Virus record (IMG/VR): IMGVR_UViG_2939142107_000001
Location: 1-64,000 of that record
DNA from: a virus
Lineage: Duplodnaviria > Heunggongvirae > Uroviricota > Caudoviricetes
Length of the DNA: 64,000 nt
Strand: one strand, 5' to 3'
In this document: in pieces, positions 7,225-56,080 of the stretch
Layout: every line of letters begins with the position of its first letter
Position numbering within the stretch: position 1 is the stretch's first letter
Notes under the pieces: model-generated
What the model was told of the DNA's origin: nothing
Databases searched by the model: none
Seen by the model: only the letters and a program-made list of their open reading frames with translations
Made by a program: the position numbers and the translations under genes

Positions 7225-8040
7225 ATGAGCAAAAACTTTTTTCAATCCGGGGCATTTTTGGGGAATGGACTGTCCCGTTTCGCTTTGAACTCTGATCCTG
7301 TGCAGCTGATGGAGTCTGCCCGAGCAAGCGCCGAACCGCCAACAGATCCGGTTATTAATAATAATCCGGAACCGGCGGCACAGACTAACGATAACGTTCC
7401 ATCTGCCCCGGCTCCAGAGCAAATCCTGGAAGGGAAAGACGGTAAAGAATGGACCGTCGAACAGGCGCACCAGATGATTCTGGAAGCTGCAAATCGAAGT
7501 GCTATGCAGAATGCGTTGAGTGATGCGGCCGACGCCGTTTTCTCCTGGGCTGATAGCGGTGATCTGACTTTCGACTCCCTTGATGGTTTCGTTCAGGCTA
7601 TCGCTGGTATCTCTGATGACGACGACTCCGAAGTTACAGAAGAACAGGACGATGCCTATAACGAAGCATGGGCAAATGTTGCTGACTTCCTCGCAGCATG
7701 CGGTGTAGATGATGACCTGATCGAAGCACTGGCTGACGATGAAGACGACGACGCAGCTGCTGATGTTGGTGCCTCTATCGCTGGTTTAGATAGCGACGAC
7801 CGTGATGAACTGGAAGCGGCGTTTGTTGTTGCTGGCACTTCTGATGAAATGCTGACTGAAGCATTTAAGAAGGTTGTTCGTAACGGTGAGATCAAACTCA
7901 TCCGTAAACGCCTGCGGAAAAAACGTCTGACTGCGGCTCAAAAATCGGCGCTGAAAAAAGCGCGTCGAAAAGCCCAGACCGGCGCGGCAAAACTTGCCCG
8001 CAAAAAGTCAATGAAACTGCGCCGTAAGCGCCTTGGCTAA
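7225..8040 (+). CDS. Strongly acidic protein (runs of D/E) with a poly-basic K/R C-terminal tail of about 45 aa. It sits at the P1 gene 21 position.
   Basis: 271-aa ORF with an RBS (GGGAATACAATG context). Its composition is DDDDSEV, DDEDDDAAAD, then KRLRKKRLTAAQKSALKKARRKAQ. Confidence 0.5.
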   Translation: MSKNFFQSGAFLGNGLSRFALNSDPVQLMESARASAEPPTDPVINNNPEPAAQTNDNVPSAPAPEQILEGKDGKEWTVEQAHQMILEAANRSAMQNALSDAADAVFSWADSGDLTFDSLDGFVQAIAGISDDDDSEVTEEQDDAYNEAWANVADFLAACGVDDDLIEALADDEDDDAAADVGASIAGLDSDDRDELEAAFVVAGTSDEMLTEAFKKVVRNGEIKLIRKRLRKKRLTAAQKSALKKARRKAQTGAAKLARKKSMKLRRKRLG

Positions 8041-8075
8041 AGGAGGAGGCCGGAGAACTCCGGCCTTTAACTTGA

Positions 8076-8657
8076 ATGGCACCTATACCTTATGGGGTTT
8101 ACAGCCAGGCTGATGGTGTATCGCCATTTCTGAAAGTTACTTTAACGAACTCTCAGTACCAGGTTACCGGATATATCAGCCAGGGGGCAGCAATGAACAT
8201 GGCCCAGAATTGGGAAGCGCCGTTTACCGGTATGTCCATGGGGTCTGTTGCTGGTGCTTTCAGTGGTTTTGCGCAGGTTGGTACTGAAACAACGTCGGTG
8301 GCCCGTTGGAACAGCTTAATGGTTTGGGAGGGGGGAACACCGCCGACTTTCACGCTGCCAGTAACTTTCATCGCTTTGTTTGACCCATTCACGGAGGTTT
8401 CAGGAGCTATCGCCGCATTGTCAGCGATGATTAGCCCGGAACTTAAAGATGCCAGTATTGGTGGTCGAATCCCGGAGCGTGTGACGCTAAACATTGGTCG
8501 CCGGATCAACATCATTGATGTCGCTATCCAGGACATAAGTTTCGATCTCGATGCACCCAGGGACAGCAATGGGCATTTCCTGAAAAACACCGTCAACCTC
8601 CAGTTGACCGGTTCTTCGATATATAACAGCTCCGATATTGTTCGGGCGTTCCAGTAA
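8076..8657 (+). CDS. Structural/morphogenesis protein (193 aa). By synteny it matches the pmgG/bplB region.
   Basis: ORF in the late operon, preceded by the hairpin ggccggagaactccggcc at 8048-8065. Confidence 0.5.
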   Translation: MAPIPYGVYSQADGVSPFLKVTLTNSQYQVTGYISQGAAMNMAQNWEAPFTGMSMGSVAGAFSGFAQVGTETTSVARWNSLMVWEGGTPPTFTLPVTFIALFDPFTEVSGAIAALSAMISPELKDASIGGRIPERVTLNIGRRINIIDVAIQDISFDLDAPRDSNGHFLKNTVNLQLTGSSIYNSSDIVRAFQ

Positions 8658-8668
8658 AAGGATTTTAT

Positions 8669-9178
8669 ATGGGGCACAATAACACTAAGGGAAACCGTAA
8701 ATTTATTAAGGGCCGCTATACTGCCAACGCGGCCAAAGGCGAACGACTGGTATCTTCTGAATTCCAGCTCACTTTTGCAGGCCATGAAGATATCAGCGTA
8801 CTGGTTCGCACGTCGCAAATTCCTGAAATGACCCGCGAGGATGTGGAGGACTATGGTCCGAATGGTGTGAAGTTCAACCAGCACGGTCCAATTCGAAACT
8901 CTGGGGAAATCCAGGTCCAGTGCGTGGAGACTATCGAAGGCGATATTCTTCAGTTCATTAAAGATCGCATTGCGGCGAAGGACTATGTTGATATCACGAT
9001 GGCTGCGACCCCTGAATCCAAATCTTCCGGGGTTAACGCTGTGACAAAAGCTGCTACAACAATTGAAATGTTGGACTGCAAAATCTACAGTGATGCAATC
9101 GACTTTAGTACCGAAGATGTGACTGCCGCTGTGCGCCCGTCACTTCGTATCGTTTACAACTGGATTGAGTGGGATTAA
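8669..9178 (+). CDS. Structural/morphogenesis protein (169 aa).
   Basis: Tightly spaced after the previous ORF, and followed by a strong intrinsic terminator. Confidence 0.5.
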   Translation: MGHNNTKGNRKFIKGRYTANAAKGERLVSSEFQLTFAGHEDISVLVRTSQIPEMTREDVEDYGPNGVKFNQHGPIRNSGEIQVQCVETIEGDILQFIKDRIAAKDYVDITMAATPESKSSGVNAVTKAATTIEMLDCKIYSDAIDFSTEDVTAAVRPSLRIVYNWIEWD

Positions 9179-9197
9179 GAGTCATCCCTTGTATTTT

Positions 9198-9222
9198 AAA
9201 GCTCCTTCGGGAGCTTTTTTGT
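9198..9222 (+). terminator. Rho-independent terminator aaagctccttcgggagcttttttgtg.
   Basis: 8-bp stem with a ttcg tetraloop, followed by a T6 run. Confidence 0.65.
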
Positions 9223-9261
9223 GCTTAAATTATGCCGGTATAGATAGATTTTGAGCATGTT

Positions 9262-9558
9262 ATGGAAATTGATTTTTCATACTCTCCTGAGACGATAGAA
9301 AGAAGATTCGAAATAATTGGATGCATAACTATTTCAGATGAGCATTATTGGGTTCTCTATGATGCCAATACATGGTTATGTGCCTTAGCAGAATGTCAGC
9401 CATCGTTATGTGTAGGGGAGGGGGCTTTTCGACATAAGGTGCTGGCTACACTTGAAGTGAACACGTTACGATATTGGTGTGTAGAAATACTTAGTGATAA
9501 CAAAGAATTGCATTTATTATTGCTGAATAAGTGTGCTTCTCTGCGCAGAAAAGCATGA
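9262..9558 (+). CDS. Hypothetical 98-aa protein at the start of the AT-rich inserted cassette.
   Basis: AT-rich codon usage unlike the backbone. A hairpin plus T-run follows at about 9676-9722. Confidence 0.4.
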   Translation: MEIDFSYSPETIERRFEIIGCITISDEHYWVLYDANTWLCALAECQPSLCVGEGAFRHKVLATLEVNTLRYWCVEILSDNKELHLLLLNKCASLRRKA

Positions 9559-9724
9559 GAAAACCCAACCGCTCTCCAGGAATTATCAGAAGAATATATG
9601 CGGAAAGTTATAGCTAGCTATTGAAAAGCTAAAGTAGATCGGTTAGATTTGCCTTACTCATCTACCATGTGTAGAAAGAGCGATCGAACCCGATACATAG
9701 CAATATGTGTCGGGTTCAGCTTTT

Positions 9725-49919: not shown

Positions 49920-50360
49920 ATGGCCACACTATCTGATACAATAAAACCGAATAAAACATATCTTGAGGCGGTACTCCGTACAGCGTTGTTAGGAAAGACA
50001 GAAGACGAATACGTTGATTTCTTCCTGTCAGGGCTACGCGGGCGATTACTGAAAAATCCCCGCCTGTACCGCAGCTATGGTCCATACTGGCCGGAAATTA
50101 AAAAATTATTACTGGAGCGCGGTTATGGTAATTTCGGTCGTCTCGTTGACCGTGACGTTCGCAAAATTTACCGTTATGACCGCCCGGCTCTAACACTCAT
50201 AGCCGCGACGCTCTACAGCCAGGAGCGTTTTGATAATGGTCAGATATACTCAGCCTGGCATTTACTGCCAGTGCCTGAAGAAGTTGACGACCAGGACTAT
50301 GAATTTGAGTCTTACGATTTGGAAGTTGAAGCCTTGGCACAGGCTGGAGAGAAAACTTGA
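49920..50360 (+). CDS. ulx: Ulx-like protein (146 aa), a DarB packaging partner by synteny.
   Basis: Immediately downstream of darB, as in P1. Confidence 0.5.
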   Translation: MATLSDTIKPNKTYLEAVLRTALLGKTEDEYVDFFLSGLRGRLLKNPRLYRSYGPYWPEIKKLLLERGYGNFGRLVDRDVRKIYRYDRPALTLIAATLYSQERFDNGQIYSAWHLLPVPEEVDDQDYEFESYDLEVEALAQAGEKT

Positions 50361-50605
50361 AAAAGCGATACTACACAGTAAAGCATGGGACGCTACGAGC
50401 ATTACAAGAGTTTGCTGATAAGCATAACGTTGAGGTGCGCAGGGAAGGGGGAAGTAAAGCTCTGCGCATGTACCGCCCGGACGGGAAATGGCGTACGGTC
50501 GTCGATTTCAAAACTAACAGCGTTCCCCAGGGCGTCCGCGACCGGGCATTCGAAGAATGGGAGCAAATCATCATAGATAATGCATTGCTCCTGAATGCTG
50601 ATTAA
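50357..50605 (+). CDS. Lxc-like small protein (82 aa).
   Basis: ATGA-coupled to ulx, synteny. Confidence 0.4.
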   Translation: MKKRYYTVKHGTLRALQEFADKHNVEVRREGGSKALRMYRPDGKWRTVVDFKTNSVPQGVRDRAFEEWEQIIIDNALLLNAD

Positions 50606-50663
50606 GTTTGTCTAGCCCGGTTAATACCGGGCTGGTTTAGACATCTTAAGTGGGTGTTAATTT

Positions 50664-51173
50664 TTAATTATGGTTAATCATATCTAACAGTATTTTTAGC
50701 TTCCTGCATGTGTTATCAATATCTTTACATAATATGACATCAAGGATGTTTGGTAGTCCTAATACCATATGAGAAATGAAACCCTCGCCAACTTGTAGAT
50801 TATGGGTAGTCTCATCTGGATTCACGTATTCAATGGTTTTAGTTTTATTTATCCCATAATCTTTATAACAGATGATTACAGGAATGTTCTTCTGTTCAGC
50901 AATCTGCAACTCTATTCCTAGCCCTGTTGATGGAAAACTACATTCTGCAATTATTACATCAGATTTCTCAACCATATCTCTGTCCCAAATGTAACAAAGT
51001 CTAGATTTGTTACTTTCAGGGCGCTTTGATAATTCTGGGTCACTATTTATCAAAGCATATTTTACGTTGTTATTTTGAGATAGACCTTTTGCAAGGCTGT
51101 GAATCCAATTACTGTACTCATGGAAAATTTCCCTTGGAACATGAGTTAAAGCGCATGCGATATATATATTCAT
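50664..51173 (-). CDS. Nucleoside 2-deoxyribosyltransferase / DNPH1-like protein (169 aa). It is the second gene of the AT-rich operon that replaces res/mod.
   Basis: N-terminus NIYIACAL (compare IYLAGP). Motif SDVIIAECSFPSTGLGIELQIAEQKNIPVI fits the [D/P]SxGxxxE[L/I]G...KPV catalytic-Glu signature of the NDT family. About 33 percent GC. Confidence 0.55.
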   Translation of the reverse strand: MNIYIACALTHVPREIFHEYSNWIHSLAKGLSQNNNVKYALINSDPELSKRPESNKSRLCYIWDRDMVEKSDVIIAECSFPSTGLGIELQIAEQKNIPVIICYKDYGINKTKTIEYVNPDETTHNLQVGEGFISHMVLGLPNILDVILCKDIDNTCRKLKILLDMINHN

Positions 51174-52213
51174 TAAGAAGCAGACCTTACGTTTGGGATA
51201 AGAAATTGGTGTCCAGTAATTTCAGATGAAATTGCATCTATAAACTGTGACGGAGATTGTTGAATAAATTCAGCAATAATCCAGTTTTCTTTTTCATTTA
51301 GTAACTGTCTTAGCTTAAGTGGGTCATACCGACATAGCTCACTTAATCGATGCATAGCTGCTAGGGTTATAACCAATGGCGATATTGAAACAGAAGTATG
51401 CTCAGATTGATTGTTTTTACGTTTGAGATACCAAAGAGTCTCTGCGCCATTGATATAGTAAAGATCTCTTCTTATTTTTTGATGAAATTCAGTTAATTGC
51501 GGCATGTTGGACGATTGATTTTCATTAAAATCAAGTAATGATTCTACTGATTTTATTTTGTACTTTTCTCTTTCAAACAATTCGAACGCTGGCGGTAGAA
51601 TGTCGAAAACTGTGTCGAACCGAAAATCCTTGGATAAAATCGCAGTGAAAAACAGGCTATTGTCTGACTCATTCAAAACGAACTCAGCATCGATCAGTGG
51701 AATAAATATATCATCAGTTACATCATAAGTAAGGCAATATGTACGATGAATATATGGCAATCCAGAAAAAAGGTTTTTTATATTGTACACCCCCTCATGA
51801 GAGGTGCCGTCAATATATTTTGAAAAAGACGGAAGTATACCCTCATTTTTTATTTTTACTTTTATATCAGATAAGTTATCAATTTGGGCTGTATTTTCAC
51901 CCCTAGCAACACCATGATGCTGTTTGAAGTTTATATTGCGAGATGAAAGTAACGCCTTTACTGCATTCATGAATGAATAATAGTGCAAAAGTGGGGCTGA
52001 TTGGTTGGGTAAACCATTGGCCGCCTGATTAAATACTTTTGCTTGCTCCCAATAAAAAAGAGCCTCATCTTTTTCGTTTCGCTTTAACCAGAGTTCGACA
52101 AAATCCCAATGACTGTATGTAAGTACATTCCTTGCGGTTAGGTCAGGGTTTAATAATGCTTTATGAGGCTTCATGACCTTGTTCCTAATTTTCAGCGGCT
52201 TAATATTCATCAT
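51173..52213 (-). CDS. Unknown 346-aa protein, the first gene of the same operon. Its TAA stop overlaps the ATG of the downstream gene (TAATG).
   Basis: Long AT-rich ORF with 1-nt translational coupling. No motif recognised. Confidence 0.55.
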   Translation of the reverse strand: MMNIKPLKIRNKVMKPHKALLNPDLTARNVLTYSHWDFVELWLKRNEKDEALFYWEQAKVFNQAANGLPNQSAPLLHYYSFMNAVKALLSSRNINFKQHHGVARGENTAQIDNLSDIKVKIKNEGILPSFSKYIDGTSHEGVYNIKNLFSGLPYIHRTYCLTYDVTDDIFIPLIDAEFVLNESDNSLFFTAILSKDFRFDTVFDILPPAFELFEREKYKIKSVESLLDFNENQSSNMPQLTEFHQKIRRDLYYINGAETLWYLKRKNNQSEHTSVSISPLVITLAAMHRLSELCRYDPLKLRQLLNEKENWIIAEFIQQSPSQFIDAISSEITGHQFLIPNVRSAS

Positions 52214-52303
52214 TGTAATAATCCTCCACCCAAAGTTACTAGATTGTAAAATATATATTTTTGTTCCACAACAAAAATCTCTATTGGCTACTGACGTAAT
52301 TAA

Positions 52304-53092
52304 TTATAAATAGTTTTCTTTGCCGGTAAGTAAGCCTTGAGGAACTCGCTTGTCGGCTAGACATTGGGTTCCGCGAATTATGTTAATCAGAGGGCTTAGT
52401 AACGATGGTTCCTGGCGGGCCTCAACTTCTCCAGCCATTGCCCTGATGTAGTCGGCGCTTGCAACGTTGTTATATTCCGTTGCGAAGCAGCATAACAACG
52501 ACAGAACGTGCTCTGTCGTTATTTCGCTCCAGTTGATGTTGAAAAATTCATCGCCTTTTTTGTCGTGTTCGGAATCGAAGATGCTTTGGTGGAGGATGTA
52601 TTTGCCGGATTCTTTGCGCGGTAACTTGATCGCTTTCTGGCGTTCCAGCTCCTTGTAAATCTGCATTGCTTCAATTAGTACCGGCCTGCCGTTCATGAAG
52701 GGATCGCGCAACCTTACACGCTGGCCAACTCGACCCGTAATAAAGCTGTTTTCCTCTTCCACCAGCACGATAAAACCCTTTTCCTCTTTTTCTTGCAATT
52801 CGCGCAGCAGCTGGAGTTCCATATCGCGGCGGCGTTCAGGGTAGCTGGTCCGCTCAGCCATTATCAGCTCATTGTTGATCCATGCGGCAGTCATTGACGC
52901 CGGTTTGCCGACGCTCATCGAAACAACGCATATTTTCTTATCCATAGCGCCCCTTATAAAAAAGAAAAGCCACCAGCGGCGGCTTAGCAATACAACTGAA
53001 GGTAGCGCCCGGTACTCAGACTGTGCCGTCCATGGAATATTTGAAAAGGGATCCATCCGTACCGGGCATGTGATGATTCTGACTGAAGTCAC
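52304..53092 (-). CDS. Hypothetical protein at the P1 mat position. The likely start is MDKKICVV at 52944 (213 aa).
   Basis: Backbone-like GC content. Synteny cre-cra-ref-mat. Confidence 0.4.
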   Translation of the reverse strand: MTSVRIITCPVRMDPFSNIPWTAQSEYRALPSVVLLSRRWWLFFFIRGAMDKKICVVSMSVGKPASMTAAWINNELIMAERTSYPERRRDMELQLLRELQEKEEKGFIVLVEEENSFITGRVGQRVRLRDPFMNGRPVLIEAMQIYKELERQKAIKLPRKESGKYILHQSIFDSEHDKKGDEFFNINWSEITTEHVLSLLCCFATEYNNVASADYIRAMAGEVEARQEPSLLSPLINIIRGTQCLADKRVPQGLLTGKENYL

Positions 53093-55335: not shown

Positions 55336-55744
55336 TTAACACTCAGATAATGGTTTTAAGTAAAGTGTACAGGATCGGCTCTGCCTTTACCTGTTTATGG
55401 TTCTCGTCATAGAAACGCCAGCGACCGCGCGTGCGTTCTATTTTCTCTTCACCGCGCGATAATGACAGTTGACAACTATCACGATCAAACCCTTTTGCCC
55501 GCCAGTAACCACGGTTTTTCTCAAGCTCAAGATGAGTGGACACTTTAGCAGCTGAATATCCCATTTTTCACCTCTGATTGATTGGTGGTGCTAAGTGCGC
55601 TACGCGAAATCTGGAGCACTAACACTGCCAACATTTCGCAGATTTTACGTAGCGCAACCTTGATCAAATGATCACTATTTGACCTGTAAGGTATTGAACT
55701 GTATGGATTTACAGGTAAATTGATCATGTTCAATAACCCTTTAG

Positions 55745-55778
55745 ATAACTTCGTATAATGTATGCTATACGAAGTTAT
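55745..55778. other. loxP: loxP site ATAACTTCGTATA-ATGTATGC-TATACGAAGTTAT.
   Basis: Exact 34-bp loxP: 13-bp inverted repeats flank the 8-bp spacer. Confidence 0.97.
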
Positions 55779-55821
55779 TAGGTCTGAAGAGGAGTTTACG
55801 TCCAGCTGCGCATAAAAATCA

Positions 55822-55845
55822 ATAATTATTAGAGCAATAAATTTT
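55822..55845. promoter_or_regulatory. C1 operator (Op99-like) ataattattagagcaataaatttt.
   Basis: Reverse complement AAATTTATTGCTCTAATAAT matches the C1 consensus. Confidence 0.6.
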
Positions 55846-55902
55846 GAGAGAAAAATCCCACTCCACCAGCCAAAAACTGGATTGTTTTTCATAGTTGTTT
55901 GA

Positions 55903-55922
55903 CAATTGCTCTAATAAATTAT
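55903..55922. promoter_or_regulatory. C1 operator (Op99-like) caattgctctaataaattat in inverted orientation to the previous one. It overlaps the putative promoter TTGACA (55897-55902)-N17-TAGTTT, which is directed toward coi-c1.
   Basis: Consensus ATTGCTCTAATAAATT. Confidence 0.6.
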
Positions 55923-56080
55923 AGTTTTGCCGCCGTTTCGTAATACGACTTTGGATTCACTATTTAATGTGTCTTCAGCGTTGTAGAGCGGCTCAGAAGG
56001 AAATGAGCAAACAGGGAAACCTTATACAACGGCATTACAGCTATGCATTGCTCATCTTACACACAGCGCAATGTTGTTAG

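What the first reader, a model, noticed from the sequence alone, without database searches (positions are those of the whole stretch)
50606..52303. AT-rich two-gene operon with an NDT/DNPH1-like protein at the position where P1 has res-mod
The order lxc-[X]-mat-ref-cra-cre is otherwise P1-like. Where P1 carries its type III R-M genes, this window has a roughly 1.6-kb cassette at about 33 percent GC against a backbone near 50 percent.

The cassette encodes a 346-aa protein with no recognisable motif. Its stop overlaps by one nucleotide (TAATG) the start of a 169-aa protein.

The 169-aa protein carries the hallmark of the nucleoside 2-deoxyribosyltransferase / 2'-deoxynucleoside-5'-phosphate N-hydrolase fold. 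This is an N-terminal IYIA strand plus a PSTGLGIELQIAEQKNIPVI segment with a conserved glutamate.

This locus is the defence hotspot of P1-like phages, and the cassette composition marks recent horizontal acquisition. A nucleotide-N-glycosidase-like effector paired with an unknown sensor-sized protein could be an abortive-infection, nucleotide-depletion or NAD-processing defence module. Alternatively it could be a nucleotide-modification enzyme that supports the adjacent Dar antirestriction functions. To my knowledge this two-gene architecture is not a described defence family.
Basis: partly seen in the sequence, partly recalled or inferred. Interest (0 to 1): 0.88.

Follow-up and report, generated by a model that had tools for sequence, protein, structure and literature searches.

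The report
Candidate two-gene phage-defence cassette in P1-like plasmid
A foreign, AT-rich two-gene operon sits in the cargo slot where P1-like phage-plasmids carry anti-phage systems; it pairs a HEPN-fold YaaC-family protein with a DNPH1-like nucleotide N-glycosidase, is conserved as a pair across many bacterial phyla, and is probably an undescribed nucleotide-targeting defence system, though no experiment has tested it.

Summary
Two translationally coupled minus-strand genes (346 aa and 169 aa, TAATG overlap) form a 35%-GC cassette that exactly fills the lxc–mat gap of a P1-like phage-plasmid (window = NZ_CP031654.1).

- The gene between ref and cre is c8, not cra.

The 169-aa protein folds (pLDDT 95) like DNPH1, BcmB, MilB and NDT enzymes. 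It keeps the Asp, phosphate-binding Ser and nucleophile Glu at DNPH1 spacing.

The pair is co-conserved: 48 of 51 informative loci found with the enzyme, 71 of 82 found with YaaC, and co-divergence r=0.75. In three loci YaaC is replaced by a dCTP-deaminase-like protein.

The slot is a defence hotspot. It holds EcoP1I in P1, CapRel in SJ46, and SIR2, PIN or DUF2971 candidates elsewhere. Chromosomal relatives lie in defence islands.

Neither protein hits PADLOC v2, and no paper found describes the pair.

Best reading: a new candidate nucleotide-depleting defence module. Its function is inferred, not shown.

The parts
51173..52213 (-). Gene 1: 346-aa YaaC-family protein (RefSeq WP_077902034.1). 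It has a split HEPN-fold helical core (about residues 35-91 plus 279-333) interrupted by a ~185-aa beta-rich insertion. It has no conserved Rx4-6H. Instead it carries an invariant H288-R289-x-S291-E292-x-x-R295-Y296 and a conserved C-terminal helix.
50664..51173 (-). Gene 2: 169-aa NDT-superfamily, DNPH1-like predicted nucleotide N-glycosidase (RefSeq WP_024245513.1, annotated 'hypothetical'). Y4, D64, S82 and E88 are the candidate catalytic and phosphate-binding residues. Family-specific invariant motifs are NSDPQL (43-48) and YxNPDxxxHxLQxGxG (116-131).
   Evidence: ORF. PF05014 at E=1.8e-4, 22.1 bits, below the 28.8 cut-off. Invariant residues. PDB profile hit to Rcl/DNPH1 at E=7e-5 with aligned D, S and E. 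AF2 pLDDT 95.2. Foldseek hits to DNPH1, BcmB, MilB and NDT.
51171..51175 (-). TAATG stop/start overlap (1 nt), which implies translational coupling of the two genes.
   Evidence: Sequence read. Across homologous loci the genes overlap or lie within about 35 nt.
52214..52303 (-). 90-nt leader between the mat stop and gene 1. It has a GGAGG Shine-Dalgarno 9 nt before the ATG and a weak promoter-like TTGTGG-17-TACAAT. The cassette lies downstream of mat on the same strand, so read-through from Pmat/LPmat is also possible.
   Evidence: Sequence. The consensus scan found no promoter above threshold here, so the promoter is only a suggestion. Pmat annotation in P1.
50606..50663 (.). 58-nt spacer between the convergent lxc and gene 2. 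It contains a strong stem-loop (core AGCCCGG/CCGGGCT, about 50610-50642). This is a likely transcript-end structure. It has no T-run, so it is not a canonical intrinsic terminator.
   Evidence: RNA fold gives -21.2 kcal/mol, z=-6.75, and 0 of 200 shuffles fold as well. Other cargos (SJ46, RCS47) have their own different hairpins at the same place.
50357..50605 (+). Left flank: lxc (modulator of C1), the conserved boundary of the cargo slot.
52304..52945 (-). Right flank: mat (maturation control), the conserved boundary of the cargo slot.

Best explanation
This is a horizontally acquired two-gene operon carried as cargo in the lxc-mat defence slot of a P1-like prophage-plasmid. It most likely protects the lysogen against other phages by attacking the nucleotide pool.

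**Enzymatic part.** The 169-aa protein is a DNPH1-like member of the nucleoside 2-deoxyribosyltransferase superfamily. It is predicted to cut the N-glycosidic bond of a (deoxy)nucleoside 5'-monophosphate or related nucleotide through a covalent Glu88 intermediate. D64 and Y4 would assist, and S82, H11 and R14 would hold the phosphate.

**Partner.** The 346-aa YaaC-family protein is its obligate partner. It has a non-canonical HEPN fold with a large inserted domain. I infer that it gates the enzyme or supplies it with substrate, acting as a sensor or regulator that binds a nucleotide or nucleic acid, rather than acting as a classical HEPN RNase.

**Shown:** gene structure, folds, conserved catalytic-type residues, strict co-inheritance of the pair, the hotspot, and defence-island contexts.

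**Inferred:** defence function, substrate, direction of control, and whether the outcome is abortive or not.
For: **1. Location**
- 709 PLSDB plasmids share the flanks.
- The interval holds this cassette in 76 of them. Elsewhere it holds SIR2, RelA/SpoT, PIN, DUF2971, EAL, GNAT or DUF4145 genes, or nothing.
- P1 has EcoP1I res/mod there.
- SJ46 has its RelA/SpoT gene there. That gene is the experimentally validated CapRel^SJ46 (PMC9712102) and hits PADLOC PDC-S33 at 7e-87.
- SIR2, PIN and DUF2971 cargos hit PADLOC PDC-S25/ThsA, PDC-S34 and PDC-S31.

**2. Enzyme**
- The model is confident and has a DNPH1/BcmB/MilB/NDT fold.
- D64, S82 and E88 align with D, S and E of Rcl at identical spacing. 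Numbering them D69/S87/E93 and calling them catalytic comes from my own knowledge.
- These residues are invariant or near-invariant.

**3. Pairing**
- Of 54 genome loci found with the enzyme, 51 are informative. 48 have YaaC directly upstream (43 intact) and 3 have a dCTP-deaminase-like gene instead.
- 71 of 82 loci found with YaaC have the enzyme directly downstream.
- Across 98 unique pairs, Mantel r=0.746, with 0 of 999 permutations reaching it.

**4. Alternative partner**
- It is a full dCTP deaminase/dUTPase-fold domain with its catalytic-type motifs (2qxx, E=6e-19).
- The enzyme linked to it is nested within the YaaC-linked ones: 68% identity against a family mean of 53%.
- dCTP to dUMP followed by dNMP N-glycosidase makes a coherent nucleotide-destroying pathway.

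**5. Context elsewhere**
- The E. coli chromosomal allele lies in an integrase-bounded island with BrxR, JetD_C, McrA-HNH and the Dpd cluster.

**6. Precedent**
- NDT-like effectors are used by retron Ec86, which depletes adenine nucleotides (bioRxiv 10.1101/2023.08.16.553469).
- dCTP deaminase and dGTPase defence works by nucleotide depletion (review PMC13276650).
Against: - There are no phenotype data of any kind.
- Neither protein matches any PADLOC v2 model. This fits novelty but equally fits a non-defence role.
- PF05014 is hit only below Pfam's cut-off, and sequence similarity to DNPH1 is remote (E about 1e-4, 15% identity).
- Both proteins are unusually conserved for defence genes, at about 50% identity across phyla. 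That fits a small-molecule enzyme pair but is atypical for sensors of phage proteins.
- Only a fraction of homologous loci have recognisable defence neighbours.
- YaaC lacks the HEPN catalytic motif, and its insertion has no structural relative, so the sensor role is a guess.
- The founding YaaC of B. subtilis is, to my knowledge, a solo chromosomal gene of unknown function.
- No promoter passed the consensus scan upstream of gene 1, so expression in the lysogen is unproven.
Confidence: 0.55

Rival explanations
1. The roles are reversed within a defence system. YaaC (HEPN fold) is the effector, for example a non-canonical RNase that uses the invariant H288/R295 pair. The small NDT-like enzyme is the regulator, antitoxin-like component or signal generator, for example by releasing or destroying a base or ribose-phosphate ligand that controls YaaC.
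For: - YaaC has a block of invariant polar residues (HRxSExxRY) on one HEPN helix, with H and R seven residues apart, which places them on the same helical face.
- Divergent YaaC genes occur without the NDT-like gene, next to AbiTii or Mrr, or solo. YaaC can therefore stand alone.
Against: - The defining Rx4-6H motif is absent (1 of 32 sequences).
- The NDT-like protein keeps a complete catalytic-type residue set under strong constraint.
- The same enzyme also works with a completely unrelated partner that is itself a nucleotide enzyme. That is easier to explain if the NDT-like enzyme is the common executing step.
Confidence: 0.15
2. It is a toxin-antitoxin/addiction module that stabilises the plasmid prophage and has no role against phages.
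For: - It is a compact, translationally coupled two-gene operon on a low-copy plasmid prophage.
- It is frequently found on mobile elements.
- HEPN-containing pairs are classic TA modules.
Against: - The slot's other occupants are defence genes rather than stability genes.
- Many homologues are chromosomal, in defence islands.
- Neither protein has the small, labile, DNA-binding antitoxin architecture.
- TA and defence functions are not mutually exclusive. CapRel is a fused TA that defends.
Confidence: 0.1
3. It is a nucleotide-metabolism or counter-defence function that benefits the phage itself. Examples would be salvage or sanitation of dNMPs, degradation of host immune signalling nucleotides, or support of the neighbouring Dar antirestriction genes.
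For: - The closest solved relatives (DNPH1, MilB, BcmB, NDT) are metabolic or biosynthetic enzymes.
- The cassette lies next to ulx and darB.
- High sequence conservation across phyla is typical of metabolic enzymes.
Against: - Distribution is patchy and HGT-like. It is in 2% of complete E. coli genomes, and at 50% clustering only 34 representatives reach E<=1e-30.
- It has integrase, IS and defence-island contexts.
- It occupies a slot otherwise used for defence cargo.
- It is present in many genomes with no P1 or Dar genes.
- No biosynthetic partners such as hydroxymethylases or kinases were seen next to it.
Confidence: 0.12

Closest known systems
DNPH1/Rcl (2'-deoxynucleoside 5'-phosphate N-hydrolase; 5-hydroxymethyl-dUMP hydrolase) and the bacterial CMP/hmCMP N-glycosidases BcmB and MilB
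   Same: - Same fold. These are the best Foldseek hits, with TM up to 0.77 normalised to the target.
- They are the best sequence-profile hits in the PDB, at E=7e-5.
- Same P-S-x-G-x-G-x-E motif, and an upstream Asp at the same spacing (18 and 6 residues).
- A Tyr sits in strand 1.
   Different: - Identity is only about 15%.
- The protein has extra, invariant family-specific segments: NSDPQL and a beta-hairpin YxNPDxxxHxLQxGxG.
- It lacks the GSIRGG phosphate loop and has T10-H11-V-P-R14 instead.
- It is always encoded with a partner gene on mobile or defence islands.
- Its substrate is unknown.
Type II retron effectors (Retron-Eco1/Ec86, Sen2, Ec73): an NDT-like domain plus winged helix, held in check by RT-msDNA
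   Same: - An NDT-superfamily N-glycosidase with a conserved Glu is used as an anti-phage effector that depletes nucleotides (bioRxiv 10.1101/2023.08.16.553469; review PMC13276650).
   Different: - The cassette has no reverse transcriptase, no ncRNA (Rfam found nothing) and no wHTH lobe.
- There is no sequence match to PADLOC retron-effector models.
- The partner is a HEPN-fold protein.
HEPN-containing Abi and TA systems (HEPN-MNT, AbiD/F, AbiJ and others), including AbiJ-NTD1 fusions to nucleoside 2-deoxyribosyltransferase noted by Anantharaman et al. 2013
   Same: - A HEPN fold is present in a two-gene conflict-type operon.
- That survey already predicted NDT domains as toxin modules in Abi-like architectures (PMC3710099).
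   Different: - YaaC lacks Rx4-6H and has a ~185-aa insertion splitting the HEPN bundle.
- The partner is not an MNT nucleotidyltransferase.
- YaaC is not mentioned in that survey. A full-text search for YaaC plus HEPN found no paper.
Nucleotide-depletion defences (dCTP deaminase/AvcD, dGTPase)
   Same: - The predicted logic is the same: destroy a DNA precursor so the phage cannot replicate.
- In three loci the enzyme's partner is a dCTP-deaminase-like protein.
   Different: - The enzyme folds differ. The defence dCTP deaminase is, to my knowledge, a cytidine-deaminase-fold protein, whereas the partner here is dUTPase-fold.
- There is no PADLOC hit.
- The chemistry is glycosidic-bond cleavage rather than deamination or triphosphate removal.
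CapRel^SJ46 and EcoP1I (occupants of the same slot in SJ46 and P1)
   Same: - Same lxc-mat position in a P1-like element. CapRel also has the same orientation as this cassette.
- Both are proven defence systems.
   Different: - The proteins and mechanisms are unrelated: tRNA pyrophosphorylation for CapRel and type III restriction for EcoP1I.

Membership tests
Pfam PF14175 YaaC-like | Significant match to the family HMM above the curated cut-off | tested here: met
   157.6 bits against a cut-off of 27, E=6.3e-46, covering residues 34-332 and profile positions 18-307 of 307. RefSeq names it 'YaaC family protein'.
HEPN superfamily | Up-down helical bundle of the HEPN type | tested here: met
HEPN superfamily (catalytic RNase members) | Conserved Rx4-6H motif in the C-terminal helix region | tested here: not met
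   Only 1 of 32 aligned homologues has any Rx4-6H in the last 90 residues. The invariant residues are H288, S291, R295 and Y296 instead.
Nucleoside 2-deoxyribosyltransferase superfamily (PF05014 and relatives) | Flavodoxin-like alpha/beta fold shared with NDT and DNPH1 | tested here: met
   AF2 pLDDT 95.2. The top 32 Foldseek PDB hits are all NDT-superfamily enzymes with prob 1.00.
Nucleoside 2-deoxyribosyltransferase superfamily (PF05014 and relatives) | Match to the Pfam model above the gathering score | tested here: not met
   22.1 bits against a cut-off of 28.8, E=1.8e-4. About 40% of the listed homologues do carry a precomputed PF05014 hit.
Nucleoside 2-deoxyribosyltransferase superfamily (PF05014 and relatives) | Catalytic Glu nucleophile after the Gly-rich turn | tested here: met
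   E88 is invariant in 28 sequences. It aligns with the Glu of PSLGVGYEL in Rcl/DNPH1.
DNPH1/Rcl-type nucleotide N-hydrolases | Asp and phosphate-binding Ser at the DNPH1 positions, plus Tyr in strand 1 | tested here: inconclusive
   D64 and S82 align with the Asp and Ser of Rcl at identical spacing. Y4 is invariant, and the Pfam match starts at residue 4 / profile position 2, but no residue-level alignment of the N-terminus to DNPH1 was obtained. The GSIRGG phosphate loop is absent.
DNPH1/Rcl-type nucleotide N-hydrolases | Hydrolysis of dNMP to base plus deoxyribose 5-phosphate | not testable with these tools
   This needs an enzyme assay.
Retron type II (NDT-effector) systems | Reverse transcriptase and msr/msd ncRNA adjacent to the effector | tested here: not met
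   The cassette has only two ORFs, with spacers of 58 and 90 nt. There is no Rfam match and no PADLOC hit.
CBASS with NDT-like effector | CD-NTase cyclase gene in the operon | tested here: not met
   There is no third gene and no PADLOC match for either protein.
HEPN-MNT toxin-antitoxin | Minimal nucleotidyltransferase (MNT) partner | tested here: not met
   The partner has the NDT/DNPH1 fold, not a nucleotidyltransferase fold.
Known or candidate defence systems in PADLOC-DB v2.0.0 | HMM match of either protein | tested here: not met
   Zero families at E<=1 for both proteins. The DCD-like variant also has none. Newer DefenseFinder or PADLOC releases could not be searched.
Cargo of the P1-like lxc-mat defence hotspot | Variable, mutually exclusive inserts between conserved flanks, including proven defence systems | tested here: met

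The most novel reading that the evidence does not exclude
The pair may be a non-abortive 'nucleotide-sanitising' immunity.

- The DNPH1-like enzyme would selectively hydrolyse phage-made deoxynucleotide monophosphates. Candidates are hm-dCMP or hm-dUMP, the class of substrate preferred by its nearest solved relatives DNPH1 and MilB. In the DCD-linked variant the substrate would be dUMP made from dCTP.
- The partner (YaaC or DCD-like) would deliver or gate the substrate.

That would make this the bacterial immune counterpart, and a possible evolutionary source, of human DNPH1. It would also give the widespread, uncharacterised YaaC family its first function.
Probability: 0.12. Interest if true: 0.85.

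Novelty: new variant of a known kind. Interest (0 to 1): 0.62.

Why it matters
If confirmed, this would add a new two-gene anti-phage system.

- **Prevalence.** It is carried by about 2% of complete E. coli genomes, mostly on P1-like phage-plasmids that also spread resistance genes. Relatives occur in more than ten bacterial phyla.
- **First functional context for two proteins.** These are the YaaC family (PF14175), shown here to be a split HEPN fold, and a prokaryotic DNPH1-like enzyme.
- **Wider role for NDT-type enzymes in immunity.** N-glycosidases of this type would be shown to act in immunity outside retrons.
- **A hotspot worth mining.** The lxc-mat interval of P1-like elements also holds CapRel, EcoP1I, and SIR2, PIN, DUF2971 and EAL cargos.
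- **A testable biochemical clue.** The same enzyme pairs with a dCTP-deaminase-like protein in some genomes, which points to deoxypyrimidine nucleotide destruction.

Tried and rejected
**Library and structure searches that found nothing**
- PADLOC, NCBIfam and PHROGs gave nothing useful for either protein.
- A sequence-profile search of the PDB with the YaaC alignment found nothing.
- Foldseek of the YaaC model against the PDB was non-significant, so the inserted domain stays unassigned.
- hhalign of YaaC against the DCD-like partner showed no relationship.
- The consensus promoter/terminator scan found no signal flanking the operon.
- Rfam found no structured RNA.

**Leads that turned out empty**
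- Longer proteins carrying the same NDT-like domain (P0294-P0338) have no Pfam or PADLOC domains in their tails. They are not retron effectors.
- I considered using the '103-aa' calls of the NDT-like gene in E. coli islands as evidence that the enzyme can be lost while YaaC stays intact. The DNA is identical and the ORF is intact, so this was a gene-calling artefact and I dropped the argument.
- The QueC-family paper that mentions deoxyribosyltransferase concerns an unrelated PfkB fusion.

**Literature searches**
- Searches combined YaaC with defense, HEPN, phage and deoxyribosyltransferase, and deoxyribosyltransferase with anti-phage and antiphage.
- They returned only retron, Thoeris, TIR-like and AbiJ-NTD1 contexts.

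**Families rejected**
- Membership in retron, CBASS and HEPN-MNT families was rejected because defining components are absent.
Full report
**What is there**

The window is plasmid pCARB35_01 of E. coli UK_Dog_Liverpool (NZ_CP031654.1), a P1-like phage-plasmid, at the same coordinates.

Two ORFs lie on the minus strand between lxc (50357-50605, +) and mat (52304-52945, -):
- a 346-aa ORF at 51173-52213;
- a 169-aa ORF at 50664-51173.

The stop of the first overlaps the start of the second by one base (TAATG). The block 50606-52303 has 35.0% GC against 47.9% for the window.

Comparison with phage RCS47 fixes the boundaries. RCS47 has only 39 nt between lxc and mat. Homology ends exactly at the lxc stop and resumes at the mat stop.

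Phage P1 carries res, mod and an IS5 in this interval.
- the gene between ref and cre is c8, and cra lies beyond cre;
- the 346-aa protein is not motif-less (next section).

A GGAGG Shine-Dalgarno lies 9 nt before the first ATG. A weak TTGTGG-17-TACAAT lies in the 90-nt leader, but no promoter passed the consensus scan.

A strong stem-loop lies between the convergent lxc and the 169-aa gene (-21.2 kcal/mol, z=-6.75). It has no T-run. No Rfam family matches the region.

**The 346-aa protein**

It matches Pfam YaaC-like (PF14175) at E=6.3e-46, and RefSeq names it accordingly.

- HEPN toxins and kanamycin nucleotidyltransferase further down the list.

About 110-116 residues align. I infer that these are the helices at 35-91 and 279-333, so that residues ~92-278 form a β-rich insertion. 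That insertion has no significant structural relative.

The HEPN RNase signature Rx4-6H is not conserved (1 of 32 sequences). Instead the family has an invariant H288-R289-x-S291-E292-x-x-R295-Y296 block, plus conserved N310, W311, E315, Q323, D326 and E331.

I therefore file it as a YaaC-family, HEPN-fold protein, but not as a canonical HEPN RNase.

**The 169-aa protein**

Pfam's NDT model is hit below its cut-off (22.1 against 28.8 bits). Three further results support the assignment:
- Many homologues carry a precomputed PF05014 hit.
- A profile of 28 homologues finds Rcl/DNPH1 as the best solved relative (E=7e-5).
- The AF2 model (pLDDT 95.2) matches DNPH1, the CMP N-glycosidase BcmB, the hmCMP N-glycosidase MilB and several NDTs. 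Foldseek probability is 1.00 and target-normalised TM reaches 0.77.

In the HMMER alignment, WD64...PS82TGLGIE88L lies on QD...PSLGVGYEL of Rcl with identical spacing. From my own knowledge of Rcl, these are D69, the phosphate-binding S87 and the nucleophile E93. Y4, D64, G84, G86 and E88 are invariant, and S82 is nearly so.

The family also has its own invariant segments (NSDPQL; YxNPDxxxHxLQxGxG), which are absent from DNPH1.

The resemblance is closest to nucleotide 5'-monophosphate N-glycosidases rather than to nucleoside transferases.

**Co-conservation**

| Test | Result |
|---|---|
| 54 reference-genome loci found with the enzyme; 51 informative | 48 have a YaaC gene directly upstream on the same strand (43 intact, 5 split, truncated or IS-disrupted); 3 have a different partner |
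| 82 viral or metagenomic loci found with YaaC, with room downstream | 71 carry the enzyme |
| 98 unique pairs, pairwise identities of the two proteins | Mantel r=0.746; 0 of 999 permutations reach it |

The hosts span Alpha-, Beta- and Gammaproteobacteria, Myxococcota, Campylobacterota, Bacteroidota, Planctomycetota, Acidobacteriota, Cyanobacteria, Nitrospirota and Armatimonadota.

The 11 YaaC loci without the enzyme are the most divergent YaaC genes (34-41% identity). They are solo or lie beside AbiTii, Mrr-type endonuclease, DUF5677 or DUF2971 genes.

An exhaustive profile search of 1.84 billion representatives shows a small, tight enzyme family: 34 representatives at E<=1e-30. I saw no YaaC-enzyme fusion among the listed hits.

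**The alternative partner**

In L009, L022 and L053 the gene overlapping the enzyme's start is a 316-352-aa protein. Its features are:
- The N-terminal half is a complete dCTP-deaminase/dUTPase-fold domain (PF22769, E~1e-26). It matches the M. tuberculosis deoxycytidine triphosphate deaminase 2qxx at E=6e-19. I recall that enzyme as the bifunctional, dUMP-forming type.
- It keeps the SxDxR, RSSxxRLG and PGW-x-GH-x-P-LE motifs.
- It has a conserved C-terminal extension that ends in hydrophobic segments.
- It is unrelated to YaaC and unknown to PADLOC.

The enzyme linked to it in L009 is 68% identical to a YaaC-linked one, above the family mean of 53%. One enzyme family therefore works with two unrelated partners.

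A dCTP-to-dUMP enzyme followed by a dNMP N-glycosidase is a chemically coherent way to destroy dCTP irreversibly. This is the strongest hint at substrate class. It is an inference.

**Is the location a defence hotspot?**

Yes. In PLSDB, 709 plasmids match the flanks and 76 carry this cassette. The same interval elsewhere holds SIR2, RelA/SpoT, PIN, DUF2971, EAL, GNAT or DUF4145 genes, or nothing.

| Cargo in the slot | Test result |
|---|---|
| EcoP1I res/mod (P1) | Annotated type III R-M |
| RelA/SpoT gene, 373 aa (SJ46) | Phage SJ46 encodes the validated CapRel^SJ46 (PMC9712102); this gene hits PADLOC PDC-S33 at 7e-87 |
| SIR2 | PDC-S25 / ThsA-like |
| PIN | PDC-S34 |
| DUF2971 | PDC-S31 |
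| EAL | No PADLOC hit |

The cassette is found in 108 of 5426 complete E. coli genomes, almost always on plasmids. It is in none of the 50,697 INPHARED phage records.

**Context elsewhere**

A 59%-identical allele of the same pair sits in E. coli chromosomes. It lies in an integrase-bounded island with a BrxR-type regulator, JetD_C and McrA-HNH genes, and the Dpd 7-deazaguanine cluster.

**Mechanism**

*Shown:* an HGT-acquired, translationally coupled operon; a HEPN-fold YaaC protein without the RNase motif; a DNPH1-like enzyme with a conserved catalytic-type residue set; obligate pairing; and defence-type genomic company.

*Inferred:*
- The operon defends the lysogen.
- The small enzyme is the executing step and removes the base from a (deoxy)nucleoside monophosphate or related nucleotide.
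- YaaC gates or feeds it.

I give this 0.55. There are three main rivals:
- YaaC is the effector and the enzyme its regulator or signal generator (0.15).
- It is a pure addiction module (0.10).
- It is a metabolic or counter-defence function for the phage (0.12).

The unusually high conservation of both proteins across phyla argues for recognition of a small molecule or nucleic-acid feature rather than a variable phage protein.

**Known or new?**

NDT-type effectors are known in type II retrons and were predicted as Abi toxin modules in 2013. Nucleotide depletion is an established defence strategy.

The YaaC + DNPH1-like pair has no RT, ncRNA, cyclase or MNT partner. It matches no PADLOC v2 model, and no paper I could search links YaaC to phage, HEPN or NDT.

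There are limits to this search. Newer DefenseFinder or PADLOC releases, subscription journals and supplementary tables of recent screens were not searchable.

I rate it a new variant of a known kind: a solid, testable candidate rather than a categorically new mechanism.

Noticed in passing
L009:5009-6540, L022:4946-6531, L053:5046-6492: A second, undescribed two-gene architecture. A dCTP-deaminase/dUTPase-fold protein, with a conserved DDGGPSxWWRD extension and hydrophobic C-terminal segments, overlaps the start of the same DNPH1-like enzyme. Neither protein is in PADLOC v2. The Piscirickettsia copy is next to an Abi_2 gene.
   Followed up: partly
window 50606-52303 slot; L056, L156-L160: The lxc-mat interval of P1-like elements is a cargo hotspot with mutually exclusive inserts. 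These are EcoP1I, CapRel (SJ46), SIR2 (PDC-S25-like), PIN (PDC-S34-like), DUF2971 (PDC-S31-like), EAL-domain, GNAT and DUF4145 genes. Each insert has its own hairpin next to lxc. The EAL cargo has no PADLOC hit and sits about 1 kb from lxc with unannotated DNA between them.
   Followed up: partly
L151-L155 (E. coli chromosomal contigs), pair at 8001-9562: A 59%-identical allele of the pair lies between a phage-type integrase and the Dpd 7-deazaguanine DNA-modification cluster (QueD/PTPS, DpdD, PLD, DEAD helicase), with BrxR, JetD_C and McrA-HNH genes nearby. Some gene callers report the 169-aa ORF as 103 aa, which is an artefact.
   Followed up: yes
P0292-P0338 (representative library): A sister group of 250-565-aa proteins carries the whole NDT-like domain (motif PSTGTGQELERA) at the N-terminus. 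Long, charged, low-complexity tails follow it. They have no Pfam or PADLOC domain and their genomic context is unknown.
   Followed up: partly
L064:7088-8104, L148:5086-5949, L145:5166-5963, L142:2722-3567: Divergent YaaC genes that lack the enzyme are followed or preceded by AbiTii, Mrr-type endonuclease, DUF5677 or DUF2971 genes. I did not resolve whether these are alternative partners or just defence-island neighbours.
   Followed up: no
window 55600-56050: This is a second AT-rich patch (GC about 0.36) beyond cre/cra. It contains an unannotated 115-aa minus-strand ORF (55545-55892). RefSeq annotates nothing between 55564 and 56160.
   Followed up: no
window 52304-53092: The mechanical ORF for mat extends to a GTG at 53092 (262 aa). 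RefSeq and RCS47 annotate 213 aa (52304-52945), and P1 annotates 250 aa. The true start differs between records.
   Followed up: no
L047, L054: In two environmental genomes the pair is disrupted by IS/transposase insertions, so both genes are pseudogenised. This shows that the cassette is dispensable.
   Followed up: partly
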